Position numbers: made by a program
NCBI RefSeq assembly: GCF_051903065.1
Contig: NZ_CP178438.1
DNA length: 64,000 nt
DNA from: Escherichia coli
GTDB lineage: Bacteria; Pseudomonadota; Gammaproteobacteria; Enterobacterales; Enterobacteriaceae
Direction: 5' to 3' (one strand)
Shown: piece by piece, positions 44,401 to 50,400 of the stretch
Layout: each line of letters begins with the position of its first letter
Numbering within the stretch: the stretch's first letter is position 1

Positions 44401-47400
44401 AACAATGTCTGTTGATAGCCGAATCGCCAGTACTCTACAGAGAAAGACCCGAGTTAGGGGCTGGGATCAGAGGTTGTTCGTATGGTCGTTACCTTCTGCT
44501 GTTCAGGGTACTGGATACTGAAGTTCGTATCGAACGTATCGTTCATGGTTCCCGGGATATCAACAGGGTACTTGCAGAGCCAGACGACAAACCATCAGAT
44601 CATTTCTGGCAGCCATAAACAAAATCTGTGCGTTAACGCTCCCTAACACAGGTAGCCAGGTATTTTATAAATCTCTGTATTTTGTTGTCACTTCGATTCC
44701 GCGATTCAGCATATCGAACCAGACAAAATGATTACAACAAACCACAAGAAAGAGGGATTATAGCGTCAAAAGAATTCGAATTGCACATGGGGGCCTCATT
44801 GGTGGCCTCAAAAAGAACAAGGATAAAACAGTCGATACAAAACAATTGGTTATATAACCAGTTTCATTCCGAGTCCGGGCACCACTATTCATAAGGCCTC
44901 GCTGCAAAGCGGGGCTTTTTCACTTTCTGGCTACGGTAGATTTCTGGCCATTGCAAAGCATTATCTATTGGCTGGTTTTTTTCGCCTTTTCACGGATGTT
45001 CGTGACGTTTATACACCTCAGTACCCTCTGATATACCTTCTCTCTGCTGCCTGAAAACAAGAAATTCAATAGGTTAATAATTTATGCGTTTGTCCATCTA
45101 AAGGCGACAGTTGCCACAGTATCTAAACTGACTGATGCAAAGTCCCTCTACCCGGTAAGGTATCAGGACCATCAACGCAGACTTTTCGCAACAACCACTA
45201 CCAAAATACCGCGTAAATAACCTTCCAGAACAAGCATGACTTTTTTAACTCTCTTTTCCCCACCTGAGAAGCACCTCTTCCGCAATCCCCACAGGCAAAA
45301 ACTCCTGCTCCAGACGACCACGCGGTAAACGGGTTAAGTAGCGATAAAAATCGGCCTCCTCGTTAAGCAAGCCATCAGGTACAGCTTCCTTCGCTATGAC
45401 CGGTTCTGGAACGGCGCTATGACTGGCATACTGCTCAAACAACTCACGGTTCATGAGCAGGGCATCAAGCGTCGGACGACAACGCCTGGCTCTCGCCAGC
45501 ATCAGTAGTCCCCAGCTATCCATGTCCCCCCAATAGGCAACGCGTTTTTCATCCAGAACAGAACTGGATAGCCATTGCACGTCCAGGCCACAGCCTAAAA
45601 TCGCGATAGTGTCAGATAATGCTGGAAGATGATGCAAACACTGCTCATTTTCAACCACCAGCACTTGCGACGCGGGTAATGTTGTTTCCGCCAGTTCCGC
45701 CGTTGTTACCCGGCATTTTTTAAAAGGAAGCAAGCCGGGTGATAATGGTACAACTAAAACCCAGTGACTGGACTCATCAAAAGCATCAAGAAAAGTTGTT
45801 AATCCCTGCTCGCTGGCTTCTCCTGAAAATCGCACGTCCAACTGACCATAGTGTTGTTCCACAAACGTAATTTCGGCAACCGTCCACTGTGCCCAGTGAT
45901 TACGGTAATGCTGCGTTTTATCCACCATGTCAGACCTCCCGGGTATCAGTCTCGTTGTTTTTCCTGCGCCAGCGTAAAGATTTGAGCCCGGAGTTGTTGT
46001 TCAGCCTGCAGGACCGCCTGCTGACGCTGCAGTGAGACTTCAGGGAGCAACTTCAACTGCCGAAGCTGCTCTTCTACCGGTACGGTCTGCCGGAAGCTTG
46101 TCAGCATGCCAAAGACCTGCGATTTAAGCTCACTGACGGTAATGTATTTTCCTCTCTGACCATCAAGCGCATTCAGTTTATGGGCAAGTGCCTGAAGCTG
46201 TGTCATTCCTTCATGCCAGCCATTCATTGTATCGACAGGAAGTACTGAGACATTAACCTGTTGCTGCCACTGCTGTGTCAGAGGCTTAGCCTGCTCCGGC
46301 CACAACGACTGAGCTTGTTCTGTAAGTTTTCTGGCATAAGTGATATTCCAGTCAGGAGGTGATTTATCCAGTCGGGCCAGCTGCTGCTGTGTCTGTGCAA
46401 TAAGATCCTGCGGTAACGGAGTCTGCTGACGCAACATCCGCAGCTGTTCAGACGTGAGAGGTGCAGGGAACGGAGCCAGTGAAGCAGCTAGCTGATTCTG
46501 TAGAGGGTCTGGCCGGTGAATAAAATGCCAGCTCCACACTGAAACTATGCTTATCACCAACATGGTACACATCCCGGCGGCAAAGGATTTCCACTTTTTA
46601 ACCGGAACAGGCATTGTCGACAGCACTTCCACATTCGGCTGCGACTGCGGTTCCCGTTGAGCAACGTAAACCCACTGTACTGCACTCCCTGGCGTATCTT
46701 CATTCGGTCCACCAGAAAAGTCTCTCGTGGATGCTATCGCATCATTTGTCACGGTGGCAGGCAACCCGATACCAGGCTGAATGCTCGAGCCGGTACTGGT
46801 TATGCCATTGCTGTTTTCCAGCCGGGCAGCACTATTGTGCATCAGGATACGCAATGTATCGAGTTGGCTGAGATGTTTTAGCTCCAGGCGCTGTAGTACC
46901 TCTCCAAGGCCTGTAAGCAGTTGCTCCACCCGGTACAGCTGGTTGATGTCGCTGTAATTTAACGGGAGCGATCGCATTCGTTGCTGCAGGCGCTGACTCA
47001 GGCTGCTGAGGATTTCCATGCGGGCATGAACTGGATGCGGCCACAGAGTCCCCCACTGATGGCTTATCAGTGCCTCGAGTATCGCCAGCCCTTCATTGAG
47101 CCCGAATAAGCCAGCCAGCTGCGTACGCGCAAGCGTATACCAGGCTGCCGTTTGCAACTCCACGCCGTTCTGCTCAAACAGTGAGAGACAAAGTTTTTCG
47201 ACATACTGCCAGCTCACATCCGGGCGAGCCGGATGTGTTAGCTTACTCAGTTCATCACGCAGGGCGGCATAATCCGGTAGCATGCGCGGGTCGCCGCCGG
47301 TTTTTAATTTACGCTTGGGGATATCATTCATGGTCAGTTGTCCATTAGACGTACCAGGGGCTATTAAAGGGTATTGTTTATGCGGCTTCACTTTCTGCAT

Positions 47401-50400
47401 ATTCGAGACTCTGCAGATACTTTAGCGCCAGCGGGTCAGCAATATATTCAACCTGCCCGTGGTGACGCTCCACCTCATCGATTATCCGGCTGAGTTCACC
47501 CCGGAAAAACTTCTTATGCAGGTTGATTCGGTTAATCCGGTAGCTTTCCAGAGGGTCATGTAGTGTCTTTTCAAGCGCAGGAGCGTCATCGCTGGAAATC
47601 ATGGCGTGTGCGTCAAAATCAAACAGCACGGCTGCCCCGCTCAGTTCTTTCACGCGCTCCATAGGCTCCAGCCGTCGGGCCATGCCGATTTTGAAGACGT
47701 TTTCACCGAAGGAGCCGATATTAGAAATTACATACACATGTCCCTGCTTCGTGAACTGGGCCATAGATTTGGCGCGTTCATACTGCTGATGAACGTCCTG
47801 TATTTTCCGCTCCAGCTCCAGACGCTGTCTTTCCAGTTCATCCCTGTGAGCACCTTCTACGGCGAGCAGGGCTTCTTCCAGGAATACCGGTACACATTTT
47901 ACCGACCGGTCGTCGATACGAAGAACGAGTGCGCCAATATCAAATACTCCCCACTCAACCAGCAGGTCCGTAACGGATGTACTGATCAGTGTCAAGATAC
48001 TGCTGTTGCTTCAGGTGTCTCAGCATCACTCGTCCCTCGGGCATAAACTCGGTGCCGTAACGCACGAGGCCAATCCCCTTAAGCTCAGCATCAATGGCAT
48101 AACGAAGCTCGCCGGGGACGCTCTGCTCCAGCAGGATGACAGTAATTTTTTTCAGGCGCGGTTCGTATTTGAGCAGGACGGCAGACAATGTGCCCATCAG
48201 CTCATGGGCCGTTCCCGGCATGCCCTGGAGAACTCTGGTCATATCCGGCAGGCCATAGTCCGGCAGATGCGCCAGCGTGCCGGCACGGCAGTTGAGGATA
48301 CGCTGCATATTGTCGAGTACGGACAAAATGACCTGGTTCTGCTCGCTGACCTGGTGCAGGTCGAGGCCGCCGGTGAAGTTGCCATAAAGAGTTTCATACA
48401 ATGAAGGACGGGATGACTCACTCATCTTTCAGCGCCTTCAGGGTCAGGCGGTTGTTACCGGCCTCAATCACCCGGGCTTTATCCGGATCAAGGTCATCAC
48501 GGCTCAGCACCACCCGCCAGGTGTTGTTCACCTGGTCTGGCGACATAAACATGCCAGCCACTGCGACATACTGCGCATTTTCATCCATCGGCATATCCAC
48601 CATCACCGCCCCACCCGGCTGCAGGCGGATGTCTTTCTCAGCTACCAGGTCTGCTTTAATGGCCTGACTGTCCGCCCTGAACAGTGACGGGTAGTCCGTC
48701 GTGTCAAAGGTTTTGCGGTCTTTAAGCTGGTAAATACGCACCACCGTCGACAATGCCACGCCGCCTGCATTGCTGTTCACTGCCTCACGGGCCCGAATAT
48801 CCAGATGCAGAGTTTTTATCTGCTTATAAAAAATCGATTTGGTCACAGCAACGGTGCCGTCTGTCACTTTTTGCGTCAGCCCACAGCCCGCCAGCATCAA
48901 GGTGATACCCGCGGCCAGCGCAGCCAGAGGAAATTTACCAGCGGTAATCGCCATCTTCATCGGTCTCCCTGCGGTGAATATTTTCCTGTACCCGCTCATA
49001 GCGGCCCAGATTAATGGTGATTGTTTTTGGGTGTGATGCGGTCCTGGCCGCATTCAGCGGTCGCATCACGGCAGTGCGGCCCAGTTGCACCGCCCCTGCG
49101 TTGGGTTTACTGCTCATGGTCGCGTCAGGAAGCAGACTGCGATCGACACACAGCTGTAGCCGCACATCCAGGCGAGACCCAAGATACACGTGCAGGAGCG
49201 CCATCAGGTCCGCGTGAAGCTCCCCGCCCGATAACCAGCCCTGCACTTCTGCCGGGTCAGTGGTGGTCAGGCGCATCAGCACCTGGCTGTTCACGTCGGC
49301 GGCATAGTTGCCCATCACCGGTCGGTTTGTCAGGGTGACGGGCTGGCTAACGCTCATGGTCAATGGCTTCTTCAGCGGCACACGGCGTTTGTCGTGGTGC
49401 CAGATTTTCGCCTGCGTGTTGGGTGCCAGCAGGCGCACCAGCGAGGCCATGCCTTCTGCGGTACGCCCCGGCAGTAACATGACCGGCAGCAGTGCCAGAA
49501 AGCGCGAAGCCGGGGTCGCGATACTGTCCGTGCAGCCGTTAATCCCGAGCCCGGCCAGTCCCAGCAGGTACTGCGAGGTTGGTAATGACTCCAACTTATT
49601 GATAGTGTTTTATGTTCAGATAATGCCCGATGACTTTGTCATGCAGCTCCACCGATTTTGAGAACGACAGCGACTTCCGTCCCAGCCGTGCCAGGTGCTG
49701 CCTCAGATTCAGGTTATGCCGCTCAATTCGCTGCGTATATCGCTTGCTGATTACGTGCAGCTTTCCCTTCAGGCGGGATTCATACAGCGGCCAGCCATCC
49801 GTCATCCATATCACCACGTCAAAGGGTGACAGCAGGCTCATAAGACGCCCCAGCGTCGCCATAGTGCGTTCACCGAATACGTGCGCAACAACCGTCTTCC
49901 GGAGCCTGTCATACGCGTAAAACAGCCAGCGCTGGCGCGATTTAGCCCCGACATAGCCCCACTGTTCGTCCATTTCCGCGCAGACGATGACGTCACTGCC
50001 CGGCTGTATGCGCGAGGTTACCGACTGCGGCCTGAGTTTTTTAAGTGACGTAAAATCGTGTTGAGGCCAACGCCCATAATGCGGGCTGTTGCCCGGCATC
50101 CAACGCCATTCATGGCCATATCAATGATTTTCTGGTGCGTACCGGGTTGAGAAGCGGTGTAAGTGAACTGCAGTTGCCATGTTTTACGGCAGTGAGAGCA
50201 GAGATAGCGCTGATGTCCGGCGGTGCTTTTGCCGTTACGCACCACCCCGTCAGTAGCTGAACAGGAGGGACAGCTGATAGAAACAGAAGCCACTGGAGCA
50301 CCTCAAAAACACCATCATACACTAAATCAGTAAGTTGGCAGCATCACCAACGGAGACTATGTATTAAGAAGCCAATCGTAAAAACGGTTCCCTGGCGAGA

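What the first reader, a model, noticed from the sequence alone, without database searches (positions are those of the whole stretch)
45245..50348. T6SS remnant with embedded T5orf172 gene, truncated by an IS1 lacking target duplication
tssE and tssJ are recognisable, a TssG-like ORF reads straight out of the IS1 inverted repeat, and an ImpA_N/VasL-like gene is present, but no other core T6SS genes. The IS1 flanking 9-mers differ, consistent with an IS1-mediated adjacent deletion that probably removed the remaining T6SS genes. A T5orf172 (GIY-YIG-like) gene overlapping the VasL-like gene by 23 nt is unusual cargo for a T6SS locus.
Basis: partly seen in the sequence, partly recalled or inferred. 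Interest (0 to 1): 0.4.

Follow-up and report, generated by a model that had tools for sequence, protein, structure and literature searches.

The report
IS1-truncated type VI secretion remnant
This is the dead stump of a bacterial type VI secretion gene cluster, left next to tRNA-Phe(pheV) when an IS1-linked deletion removed about 49 kb; the odd nuclease gene inside it is an older broken phage-defence gene, so the region is ordinary genome decay.

Summary
On the minus strand, window 45245-50348 carries:
- a 5'-truncated Wadjet jetD
- an intact tagA-like gene (ImpA_N, membrane segment, VasL)
- a 5'-truncated T5orf172/GIY-YIG gene
- intact tssE and tssJ
- the last 214 codons of tssG
- a complete 768-bp IS1

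No other T6SS core gene is in the window.

IS1 has no target duplication (TGCGAGGTT versus AACGGAGAC). In an intact relative, E. coli PapRG-06-5, its two flanks lie 49,189 bp apart. That interval holds the 5' part of tssG, tssF/A/M, vgrG, clpV, hcp, tssL/K/C/B, effectors, a fimbrial cluster and a Tad pilus cluster. Three complete genomes share the exact junction and lack the missing block everywhere.

- The T5orf172 ORF is only the C-terminal 168 of about 414 residues of a PD-lambda-1/SNIPE-family defence nuclease.
- The same stump, and the jetD stump, also sit in intact loci, so both predate the IS1 event.
- Full-length copies occupy the tssE-tagA slot in other enterobacterial T6SS loci, so it is not unusual cargo.
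- The 23-nt overlap comes from choosing the longest ORF; the conserved tagA start is 47331.
- 45946-47995 is two genes, not one frameshifted gene.

A single IS1 adjacent deletion cannot be told apart from recombination between two IS1 copies. Interest is low.

The parts
44866..44884 (+). 19-bp copy of the 3' end of tRNA-Phe (pheV). It is the right-hand attachment repeat of the upstream pheV genomic island, and the T6SS remnant begins just beyond it.
   Evidence: Exact match to the last 19 nt of pheV from PapRG-06-5. No tRNA gene is found in the window. From 44885 to 58000 the window is 100% identical to 23CRST031, whereas the island upstream is only 93-97% identical.
45245..45842 (-). 5'-truncated jetD, the Wadjet anti-plasmid/anti-phage nuclease subunit. 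Residues 185-382 of 382 remain. The open frame runs on to 45928 through unrelated sequence.
   Evidence: Pfam JetD_C 3e-42. PADLOC JetD profile positions 185-381 of 383, 1.6e-101. 98% identical to the JetD of a full jetABCD operon in E. coli M605; DNA homology covers 45842-45223. JetA, JetB and JetC are absent from the window. The same stump is present in intact T6SS loci.
45946..47331 (-). Intact tagA-like accessory gene of 461 aa, with ImpA_N, a hydrophobic segment at residues 249-267, and VasL.
   Evidence: Pfam ImpA_N 66.6 bits and VasL 130.5 bits. 100% identical to WP_089521505.1 of PapRG-06-5. Hydrophobic segment SFAAGMCTMLVISIVSVWS. This domain layout defines TagA-class proteins (PMC6745524). 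dN/dS against Salmonella is 0.18.
47378..47884 (-). 5'-truncated PD-lambda-1/SNIPE-family gene. The linker helix and the T5orf172 (GIY-YIG-type) nuclease domain remain; the membrane anchor and middle region are lost. It is a pseudogene.
   Evidence: Pfam T5orf172 6.5e-13. PADLOC PD-Lambda-1 profile positions 313-476 of 491, 1.9e-65. Homology to longer genes starts exactly at 47884. Residues 247-414 of the 414-aa SC418 homologue are retained. It carries 12 private substitutions at sites invariant in 5 longer homologues, against 0-5 for each of those. RefSeq marks it 'incomplete; missing N-terminus'.
47955..48425 (-). tssE, a baseplate subunit of 156 aa, intact.
   Evidence: TIGR03357 78.3 bits against a cut-off of 53.2; Pfam GPW_gp25. 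98.7% identical to PapRG-06-5 TssE.
48418..48954 (-). tssJ, an outer-membrane lipoprotein of 178 aa, intact.
   Evidence: TIGR03352 91.6 bits against a cut-off of 31.6; Pfam T6SS-SciN. Lipobox LMLAGC. Only 91% identical to the intact E. coli loci, dS 0.56.
48935..49580 (-). 3' part of tssG, codons 154-367 of 367. The open frame is extended by 14 nt of the IS1 terminal repeat to a TTG at 49594.
   Evidence: Pfam T6SS_TssG profile positions 135-303 of 304; TIGR03347 78.6 bits, below the 143.3 cut-off because the gene is partial. tblastn covers residues 154-367 at 93.9% identity. The junction was read directly.
49581..50348 (-). Complete IS1 (IS1A-like), 768 bp. insA is 50018-50293 and insB' is 49596-50099. 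IRR abuts tssG' and IRL faces glcA. No target-site duplication.
   Evidence: Terminal repeats and the TTAAAAAAC frameshift site are present. Pfam and NCBIfam IS1 models match. Flanks are TGCGAGGTT and AACGGAGAC. The only sigma-70-like site on the minus strand of 44800-50500 is IS1's own at 50341-50314.
50349..50457 (.). The remaining 109 bp of the intergenic region 3' of glcA. This is the distal breakpoint of the deletion.
   Evidence: 99.25% identical over 400 bp to the sequence next to glcA in PapRG-06-5. The first 64 bp are absent from the T2SS/sslE-type arrangement of strain A1_181.
50458..52140 (-). glcA (glycolate permease), the intact core-genome gene that bounds the deletion.
   Evidence: ORF of 560 aa. 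Annotated glcA in all matching genomes.

Best explanation
The region is the pheV-proximal end of a horizontally acquired, Enterobacter-like T6SS island that is rare in E. coli. In intact carriers this island fills the pheV-glcA interval.

An IS1-linked deletion joined codon 154 of tssG to a point 109 bp beyond the glcA stop codon. Judged by the closest intact relative, it removed about 49 kb. The lost genes are:
- the 5' part of tssG, tssF, tssA and tssM
- PAAR, a lipase effector with its immunity genes, vgrG and an Rhs fragment
- tssH, hcp, tagL, tssL, tssK, tssC and tssB
- a chaperone-usher-like cluster, a Tad/Flp pilus cluster and a winged-helix regulator

What remains is tssG', tssJ, tssE and tagA, which cannot build a T6SS.

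Shown:
- the anatomy of the region
- the absence of a target duplication
- the 49-kb separation of the two flanks in an intact relative
- the absence of the missing genes from the genomes that share the junction

Inferred: the route of the deletion. I favour an IS1 intramolecular replicative transposition (adjacent deletion). The end product is identical to recombination between two directly repeated IS1 copies. I put the split at roughly 55:40.

The two nuclease-gene stumps flanking tagA are older scars of anti-phage or anti-plasmid defence genes that once lodged in variable slots at this end of the island. One is a PD-lambda-1/SNIPE-family T5orf172 gene and the other is Wadjet jetD. Both are inactive remnants unrelated to the IS1 event. 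Any residual transcription of the stump most likely comes from read-through out of the IS1 insA promoter (inference only).
For: - HMM identities of every ORF.
- IS1 is complete and its flanks differ.
- The left flank is contiguous with tssG and the right flank with the glcA-side sequence in PapRG-06-5, 49,189 bp apart. The intervening genes are listed.
- Both junctions occur, always together, in exactly 3 of 5,426 complete genomes. These 3 genomes are not among the 6 that contain the tssG5'-tssF-tssA-tssM block.
- No other T6SS core gene is in the window.
- Identical jetD and T5orf172 stumps occur in intact loci of PapRG-06-5 and 33F4, with 0-3 nt differences.
- Full-length counterparts exist: a 414-aa T5orf172 protein between tssE and tagA in SC418, a longer copy (>=300 aa, cut by the contig end) with the same 46-nt spacing to tagA in Salmonella, and jetABCD in E. 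coli M605.
- The T5orf172 stump has 12 private substitutions at otherwise invariant sites.
- PD-lambda-1 is SNIPE, and it needs its membrane anchor and DUF4041 for defence (bioRxiv 10.1101/2025.11.03.685801).
- Independent decay of the same island occurs in UTME-3 and GDSC2227PM, with IS3 and IS1 at the breakpoints.
- The carrier genomes hold 27-39 matching places per record, nearly all IS1 matches.
Against: - No intact locus with the window's own tssJ/tssG allele was found. The best full-length TssG hits are 93% identical and the intact E. coli loci are 88-90% identical in DNA. The 49-kb size and the gene content of the deleted segment are therefore a proxy.
- No intermediate with IS1 at only one of the two sites exists in the collection. 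With only about 9 carriers of this island the search has almost no power.
- Nothing here measures expression. 'Inactive' and 'read-through from IS1' are inferences.
Confidence: 0.9

Rival explanations
1. Two IS1 copies inserted independently and in the same orientation, each with its own 9-bp duplication. One was in tssG and one was 3' of glcA. RecA-dependent recombination between them then deleted the 49 kb and left a single hybrid IS1 with mismatched flanks.
For: - It gives exactly the observed product: a complete IS1 with unrelated flanks.
- The carrier genomes are IS1-rich, with 27-39 matching places per record.
- The glcA 3' intergenic region carries IS1 at several other positions in many strains, so a first insertion there is plausible (H39-H50).
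- GDSC2227PM has an IS1 in the neighbouring wHTH gene.
Against: - No genome has IS1 at either site alone, although only about 9 genomes carry this island.
- It needs two insertions plus a recombination, where an adjacent deletion needs one insertion plus one transposition event.
Confidence: 0.38
2. The junction is an assembly artefact. Two IS1 copies were collapsed and the segment between them was dropped.
For: IS copies are a classic cause of mis-joins in short-read assemblies, and the window's own read data are not available.
Against: - Three independently sequenced complete genomes from Ecuador and from meat have both junctions at 100% identity.
- Those genomes contain no tssG5'-tssF-tssA-tssM sequence anywhere.
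Confidence: 0.02
3. 45946-47995 is one frameshifted gene: a T5orf172-VasL fusion protein.
For: The two longest ORFs overlap by 23 nt on the same strand.
Against: - The two parts belong to unrelated families with separate full-length homologues.
- In Salmonella and in a Logan contig the two genes are separate, with a 45-46 nt spacer.
- ImpA_N profile position 9 aligns to residue 10 of the protein that starts at 47331.
- RefSeq annotates two genes.
Confidence: 0.01
4. The remnant is kept by selection. In this view tssJ, tssE, tagA and perhaps the soluble T5orf172 nuclease domain still serve some function, for example complementing another T6SS or acting as an orphan nuclease.
For: - tssE, tssJ and tagA have intact frames.
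- The T5orf172 and jetD stumps have no internal stops.
- The stumps are conserved between intact loci.
- IS1's promoter points into the cluster and no terminator-like site intervenes.
Against: - The carriers differ by 0-3 nt in these genes, so open frames carry no information about selection.
- The T5orf172 stump shows excess private substitutions.
- SNIPE lacking its membrane anchor was highly toxic (toxicity only partly reduced without DUF4041), and deleting DUF4041 abolished defence.
- ECNB21-M121 shows no second tssE- or tagA-like locus at blastn sensitivity (H51, one place).
- The same island decays repeatedly.
Confidence: 0.05

Closest known systems
IS1-mediated adjacent deletion or IS1-IS1 recombination deletion
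   Same: A complete IS1 sits at the junction of two sequences that are far apart in the ancestor, and it lacks the 8-9 bp target duplication of a simple insertion. This is classical E. coli genetics (my own knowledge: Reif & Saedler 1975; Turlan & Chandler 1995). IS-centred large deletions are also described in PMC11708052, which I saw only as a search hit and did not read.
   Different: Nothing is mechanistically different. Only the particular endpoints (tssG codon 154; 109 bp 3' of glcA) and the lost content are specific to this case.
Enterobacterial T6SS-1 type clusters (EAEC Sci-1-like; Enterobacter and Salmonella relatives)
   Same: The gene order tssF-tssG-tssJ-tssE-(variable slot)-tagA at one end is the same. 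TssG is 93% identical to Enterobacter ludwigii and E. kobei proteins.
   Different: Only tssG', tssJ, tssE and tagA remain, and 10 of 13 core genes are gone. This sequence variant is rare in E. coli: 7 of 5,426 complete genomes carry this end of the island.
TagA (ImpA_N + membrane segment + VasL), the sheath stop-and-hold accessory protein of EAEC and V. cholerae
   Same: It has the same three-part architecture and the same position downstream of tssE.
   Different: Sequence similarity to the EAEC-type tagA is low, about 70-73% DNA identity in patches. Function was not tested, and there is no sheath left for it to act on.
PD-lambda-1 / SNIPE, a membrane-bound GIY-YIG nuclease that cuts phage DNA during injection
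   Same: The C-terminal linker and T5orf172 nuclease domain match the PADLOC PD-Lambda-1 profile at 1.9e-65. Full-length relatives have N-terminal hydrophobic segments.
   Different: The window copy lacks the membrane anchor and the whole middle region. Even the full-length T6SS-linked relatives show no Pfam DUF4041 hit, so they are a divergent branch.
Wadjet type I JetD (Toprim nuclease subunit of JetABCD)
   Same: Residues 185-382 are 98% identical to the JetD of a complete jetABCD operon.
   Different: The N-terminal DUF3322 half is missing, as are jetA, jetB and jetC.

Membership tests
Functional type VI secretion system | Presence of the 13 core genes tssA-M with hcp, vgrG and clpV | tested here: not met
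   tblastn with the proteins encoded in the intact cluster finds only TssE, TssJ, TagA and TssG residues 154-367.
TssE | Score above the equivalog cut-off of TIGR03357 (gp25-like fold) | tested here: met
   78.3 bits against 53.2; Pfam GPW_gp25 3.9e-11.
TssJ | TIGR03352 above cut-off, plus a lipoprotein signal peptide with a lipobox cysteine | tested here: met
   91.6 bits against 31.6. The N-terminus is MAITAGKFPLAALAAGITLMLAGC.
TssG | Full-length match to TIGR03347 / PF06996 | tested here: not met
   Only profile positions 132-299 of 300 are covered, and 78.6 bits is below the 143.3 cut-off. The fragment is a true TssG C-terminus, 93.9% identical to residues 154-367.
TagA-class TssA-like protein | N-terminal ImpA_N, a central hydrophobic or transmembrane segment, and C-terminal VasL (PMC6745524) | tested here: met
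   ImpA_N 66.6 bits, VasL 130.5 bits. The hydrophobic 19-mer at 249-267 has mean Kyte-Doolittle 1.73.
TagA-class TssA-like protein | [quoted passage not shown] | not testable with these tools
   This needs microscopy, and no sheath genes remain in the locus.
IS1 | About 768 bp with imperfect terminal inverted repeats and insA-insB' with an A6C -1 frameshift site | tested here: met
   768 bp, repeats GGTAATGAC.../GGTGATGCT..., TTAAAAAAC present. IS1 HMMs match.
IS1 | 8-9 bp target-site duplication, the mark of a simple insertion | tested here: not met
   TGCGAGGTT versus AACGGAGAC. This is expected for a deletion derivative and does not affect membership of the element itself.
PD-lambda-1 / SNIPE | C-terminal GIY-YIG (T5orf172) nuclease domain | tested here: met
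   Pfam T5orf172 6.5e-13. PADLOC PD-Lambda-1 profile positions 313-476.
PD-lambda-1 / SNIPE | N-terminal membrane anchor, required to avoid self-cleavage | tested here: not met
   Homology starts at residue 247 of the 414-aa relative, so the hydrophobic N-terminus is absent.
PD-lambda-1 / SNIPE | Central DUF4041 domain, required for defence | tested here: not met
   It is not in the fragment. Pfam also fails to detect it in the full-length T6SS-linked relatives, although PADLOC aligns their residues 124-412 to profile positions 188-475.
Wadjet (JetABCD) | Operon jetA-jetB-jetC-jetD, with JetD = DUF3322 + JetD_C | tested here: not met
   Only JetD residues 185-382 are present. JetA, JetB and JetC give no tblastn hit in the window.

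The most novel reading that the evidence does not exclude
The interval between tssE and tagA, and the stretch just beyond tagA, may be a conserved landing slot for single-gene or small defence modules in enterobacterial T6SS-1 islands. The modules seen there are the SNIPE-family nuclease, a NERD/UvrD helicase, an OLD-family ATPase and Wadjet. The SNIPE-family gene, with its conserved 45-46 nt spacing to tagA across E. coli, Salmonella and a third lineage, might be co-transcribed with tagA and functionally tied to it or to the membrane-anchored T6SS, instead of being a mere passenger. 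The papers I searched did not describe this link.
Probability: 0.07. Interest if true: 0.45.

Novelty: already known. Interest (0 to 1): 0.13.

Why it matters
It matters little beyond annotation.
- This lineage has lost a T6SS, a Tad pilus and a fimbrial cluster in one IS1-linked step.
- It adds to evidence that this rare, Enterobacter-like island decays repeatedly in E. coli: at least three independent deletions among nine carriers.
- The practical lessons are that tssE, tssJ or tagA hits here should not be scored as a T6SS, and that the 'GIY-YIG' and 'JetD' ORFs should not be scored as defence systems.
- The one mildly useful by-product is that the tssE-tagA slot of enterobacterial T6SS-1 islands regularly hosts a SNIPE-family nuclease gene.

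Tried and rejected
- I looked for an intermediate with IS1 at only one breakpoint, using 150+150 bp junction queries against 5,426 complete E. coli genomes. None was found; both junctions occur only together, in 3 genomes. GDSC2227PM has an IS1 near glcA, but at a different site inside the wHTH gene.
- I looked for an intact locus with the window's own tssJ/tssG allele. In E. coli only 88-90% identical loci exist. In the 5.8-billion-protein set the best full-length TssG is 93% identical, from Enterobacter. The deletion size therefore rests on a proxy.
- I tried dN/dS to test whether the stumps are under selection. Carriers differ by 0-3 nt, which is uninformative. The Salmonella comparison (omega 0.10) mostly reflects history before the truncation. 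I used private substitutions at invariant sites instead.
- I asked whether T5orf172 is T6SS-linked in general. Homologues in Vibrio owensii and Pseudomonas graminis are not next to T6SS genes, so I rejected a deep functional link.
- I considered that E162K might hit the catalytic glutamate. By profile numbering, SNIPE E414 corresponds to E142 of the ORF, which is conserved, so I make no claim of catalytic inactivation.
- TssB::T5orf172 and tssC'-GIY-YIG fusions seen in other strains at first suggested nuclease-driven rearrangement. They are explained simply as internal deletions of T6SS-1 loci, whose order runs tssB...tssE-hyp-T5orf172.
- I searched for a second IS1 in the window as a recombination partner. 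There is none at the DNA level.
- Literature searches for T5orf172 with T6SS, and for TagA with EC042_4550, found nothing directly relevant.

Full report
**What is there**

On the minus strand, from the glcA side towards pheV, the region reads as follows.
- glcA: 50458-52140.
- 109 bp of intergenic DNA.
- A complete IS1: 49581-50348.
- The 3' part of tssG: 48935-49580.
- tssJ: 48418-48954.
- tssE: 47955-48425.
- A 5'-truncated T5orf172 gene: 47378-47884.
- A tagA-like gene: 45946-47331.
- A 5'-truncated jetD: 45245-45842.
- About 360 bp further on, a 19-bp copy of the 3' end of tRNA-Phe: 44866-44884.

The ORF table and two HMM libraries confirm the identities.
- TssE scores 78.3 bits against a cut-off of 53.2.
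- TssJ scores 91.6 bits against 31.6.
- The TssG fragment covers only Pfam profile positions 135-303 of 304.
- The tagA-like protein has ImpA_N (66.6 bits) and VasL (130.5 bits).
- The IS1 InsA and InsB models match strongly.

The tagA-like protein also has a hydrophobic segment at residues 249-267, and TssJ has the lipobox LMLAGC. ImpA_N plus a membrane segment plus VasL is the published definition of TagA-class accessory proteins (PMC6745524). tblastn with 15 other proteins encoded in an intact cluster found nothing else in the 64-kb window; these included TssB, C, K, L, Hcp, TssH, VgrG, TssM, TssA and TssF.

**The IS1 junction**

IS1 is exactly 768 bp, with both terminal repeats and the TTAAAAAAC frameshift site. 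Its flanks are ...ACTGCGAGGTT on the left and AACGGAGACTA... on the right, so there is no direct repeat of any length. The tssG frame continues 14 nt into the IS1 right repeat to a TTG at 49594.

The decisive comparison is with E. coli PapRG-06-5, which carries the intact island.
- The left flank continues there into the rest of tssG.
- The right flank matches the sequence next to glcA at 99.25% identity.
- The two points are 49,189 bp apart.

That interval holds the 5' part of tssG, tssF, a small ORF, tssA, tssM, PAAR genes, a lipase effector with a row of probable immunity genes, vgrG, an Rhs fragment, tssH, hcp, an OmpA-type tagL, tssL, tssK, tssC and tssB. It also holds a chaperone-usher-like cluster, a Tad/Flp pilus cluster and a winged-helix regulator.

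The first 64 bp to the right of IS1 are absent from the commoner T2SS/sslE arrangement of the pheV-glcA interval (strain A1_181). The ancestor therefore had the PapRG-type layout.

**Is the deletion real?**

Junction probes of 150+150 bp against 5,426 complete E. coli genomes find both junctions, always together, in three genomes: 23CRST031, 23CRST027 and ECNB21-M121. From 44885 to 58000 the window is 100% identical to 23CRST031. A 7.6-kb probe covering the tssG 5' part through tssM hits only six genomes, and none of the three is among them. The genes are therefore gone, not moved, and an assembly collapse is very unlikely.

**Mechanism**

A complete IS1 with unrelated flanks is the expected product of two routes.
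- An IS1 intramolecular replicative transposition (adjacent deletion).
- Recombination between two directly repeated IS1 copies.

Both routes are classical (my own knowledge: Reif & Saedler 1975; Turlan & Chandler 1995). The sequence cannot separate them. No genome has IS1 at one site only, but only about nine genomes carry any part of this island, so that absence says little. The carriers are IS1-rich, with 27-39 matching places per record. The glcA 3' region holds IS1 at other positions in many strains. I favour adjacent deletion on parsimony, at roughly 55:40.

**The T5orf172 ORF**

The 205-aa ORF (47378-47995) is not an intact gene.
- Its homologues include proteins of 345-358 aa, and a 414-aa E. 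coli protein with two N-terminal hydrophobic segments, a long coiled coil and the C-terminal nuclease domain.
- DNA homology to the longer genes begins exactly at 47884.
- The window retains residues 247-414 of the 414-aa protein.
- PADLOC assigns it to PD-lambda-1, profile positions 313-476 of 491, E = 1.9e-65.

PD-lambda-1 has been renamed SNIPE. It is a membrane-anchored GIY-YIG nuclease that cuts phage DNA during injection. The nuclease and DUF4041 domains are each required for defence, and the version without the anchor is toxic (bioRxiv 10.1101/2025.11.03.685801). The window copy has neither the anchor nor the middle region. It carries 12 private amino-acid changes at sites invariant in five longer homologues, against 0-5 for each of those, as expected for a decaying pseudogene. 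RefSeq also flags it as 'incomplete; missing N-terminus'.

**Is it unusual cargo?**

It is not.
- In E. coli SC418 the order is tssE, a small ORF, the 414-aa T5orf172 gene, a NERD/UvrD helicase, a small ORF and then tagA. 116 of 5,426 genomes carry at least 80% of that block, and about 1,100 carry part of it.
- In Salmonella and in a Logan contig, a longer T5orf172 gene lies directly upstream of tagA with the same 45-46 nt spacer as in the window.
- In Enterobacter an unrelated 156-aa ORF fills the slot.
- Homologues in Vibrio and Pseudomonas are not next to a T6SS.

The tssE-tagA interval is therefore a variable slot that often hosts this defence gene.

The identical stump is present in the intact islands of PapRG-06-5 and 33F4, with 0-2 nt differences. 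Its truncation therefore predates the IS1 deletion and has nothing to do with it.

**Overlap and frameshift questions**

The 23-nt overlap exists only if tagA is started at ATG 47400. The start used by RefSeq is 47331, which leaves a 46-nt gap. It is supported by the Salmonella homologue (460 aa, 46-nt spacer) and by the ImpA_N alignment (profile position 9 at residue 10). T5orf172 and ImpA_N/VasL proteins are unrelated families with separate full-length homologues. 45946-47995 is therefore two genes, not one frameshifted gene.

The ORF at 45245-45928 matches JetD_C (3e-42) and PADLOC JetD profile positions 185-381 of 383 (1.6e-101). It is 98% identical to residues 185-382 of the JetD of a complete jetABCD operon in E. 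coli M605. DNA homology runs from 45842 to 22 nt past the stop codon. JetA, JetB and JetC are absent from the window. This stump is also present in the intact islands.

**Wider setting**

- The 19-bp pheV repeat at 44866-44884 marks the right end of a pheV genomic island that fills the window upstream.
- That island is 93-97% identical to the island of 23CRST031 over 38200-44884 and is not collinear with it further upstream.
- Its first 25 kb match a chromosomal multidrug-resistance segment (floR, tet(A), strAB, sul2) found in 123 genomes.
- The T6SS variant is rare in E. coli. Seven genomes carry this end of the island, and its TssG is closest to Enterobacter proteins at 93%.
- The window's tssJ/tssG allele differs by 10-12% from the intact E. 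coli loci, while tagA and both stumps are virtually identical. The locus is thus a recombination mosaic.
- Two further genomes hold different remnants. UTME-3 has pheV joined to a tssA fragment, and a truncated ORF next to tssM abutting an IS3. GDSC2227PM has tssA', tssB', IS1 and wHTH' next to glcA. The island has therefore decayed at least three separate times.

**Expression (inference only)**

The only sigma-70-like site on the minus strand of 44800-50500 is IS1's own promoter at 50341-50314, and no terminator-like site follows it on that strand. Any transcription of the stump would therefore be read-through from IS1. Nothing here measures it.

**Verdict**

The main interpretation is correct: a T6SS remnant bounded by an IS1 that marks a large deletion. 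The remarks about the T5orf172 gene are not. Every part belongs to a known family and the process is textbook, so the finding is ordinary genome decay and scores low. The only mildly new point is the recurrent presence of a SNIPE-family gene in the tssE-tagA slot of enterobacterial T6SS islands.

Noticed in passing
window 1-25000 (floR ~15235-16449, tet(A) ~17049-18248, tetR(A) ~18354-19004, aph(6)-Id 19584-20420, aph(3'')-Ib 20420-21223, sul2 21284-22099): A chromosomal multidrug-resistance segment lies inside the pheV genomic island. It is 100% identical over 25 kb to 123 complete E. coli genomes, including W2-5 and WCHEC4533. The same stretch is annotated with a DEAD/DEAH helicase and a dGTPase-family gene.
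   Followed up: partly
window 44866-44884: A 19-bp copy of the 3' end of tRNA-Phe(pheV) marks the right end of the island. No tRNA gene is in the window, so pheV itself lies beyond the window start.
   Followed up: yes
window 47955-49580 compared with L002 and L005: The locus is a recombination mosaic. tagA and the T5orf172 and jetD stumps differ by 0-3 nt from the intact E. coli islands, but tssJ differs at 70 of 534 sites (dS 0.56) and tssG' by about 10%. The breakpoint lies around tssE-tssJ.
   Followed up: partly
L020 (UTME-3) and L021 (GDSC2227PM): These are independent remnants of the same island. UTME-3 joins the pheV flank to a tssA fragment, and a truncated ORF next to tssM abuts an IS3. 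GDSC2227PM has tssA', a frameshifted tssB, IS1 and a truncated wHTH next to glcA.
   Followed up: partly
window 50349-50457 and the equivalent region in other strains: The intergenic region 3' of glcA carries IS1 at several different positions in many E. coli strains, which suggests a local IS1 hotspot (hits H39-H50).
   Followed up: no
L007 (SC418) 1087-8798; L012: In EAEC/SC418-type T6SS-1 islands, tagA is surrounded by defence-like genes. These are the SNIPE-family nuclease, a NERD+UvrD helicase (PADLOC candidate C3a187, 8e-137) and an OLD-family ATPase (PADLOC Old, 2.8e-66).
   Followed up: partly
L008 (FORC_043), L009 (AF51); proteins P0009, P0035: Other E. coli carry T6SS-1 loci with large internal deletions. 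These create tssC'-T5orf172 adjacency, a tssB ORF that runs into tagA 3'-end-like sequence in AF51, and TssB::T5orf172 fusion ORFs.
   Followed up: partly
window 41833-44618: The end of the island carries the usual CP4-57-like module: CbtA/CbeA-type toxin-antitoxin genes, DUF4942, and a ParD/ParE pair at 44032-44618.
   Followed up: no
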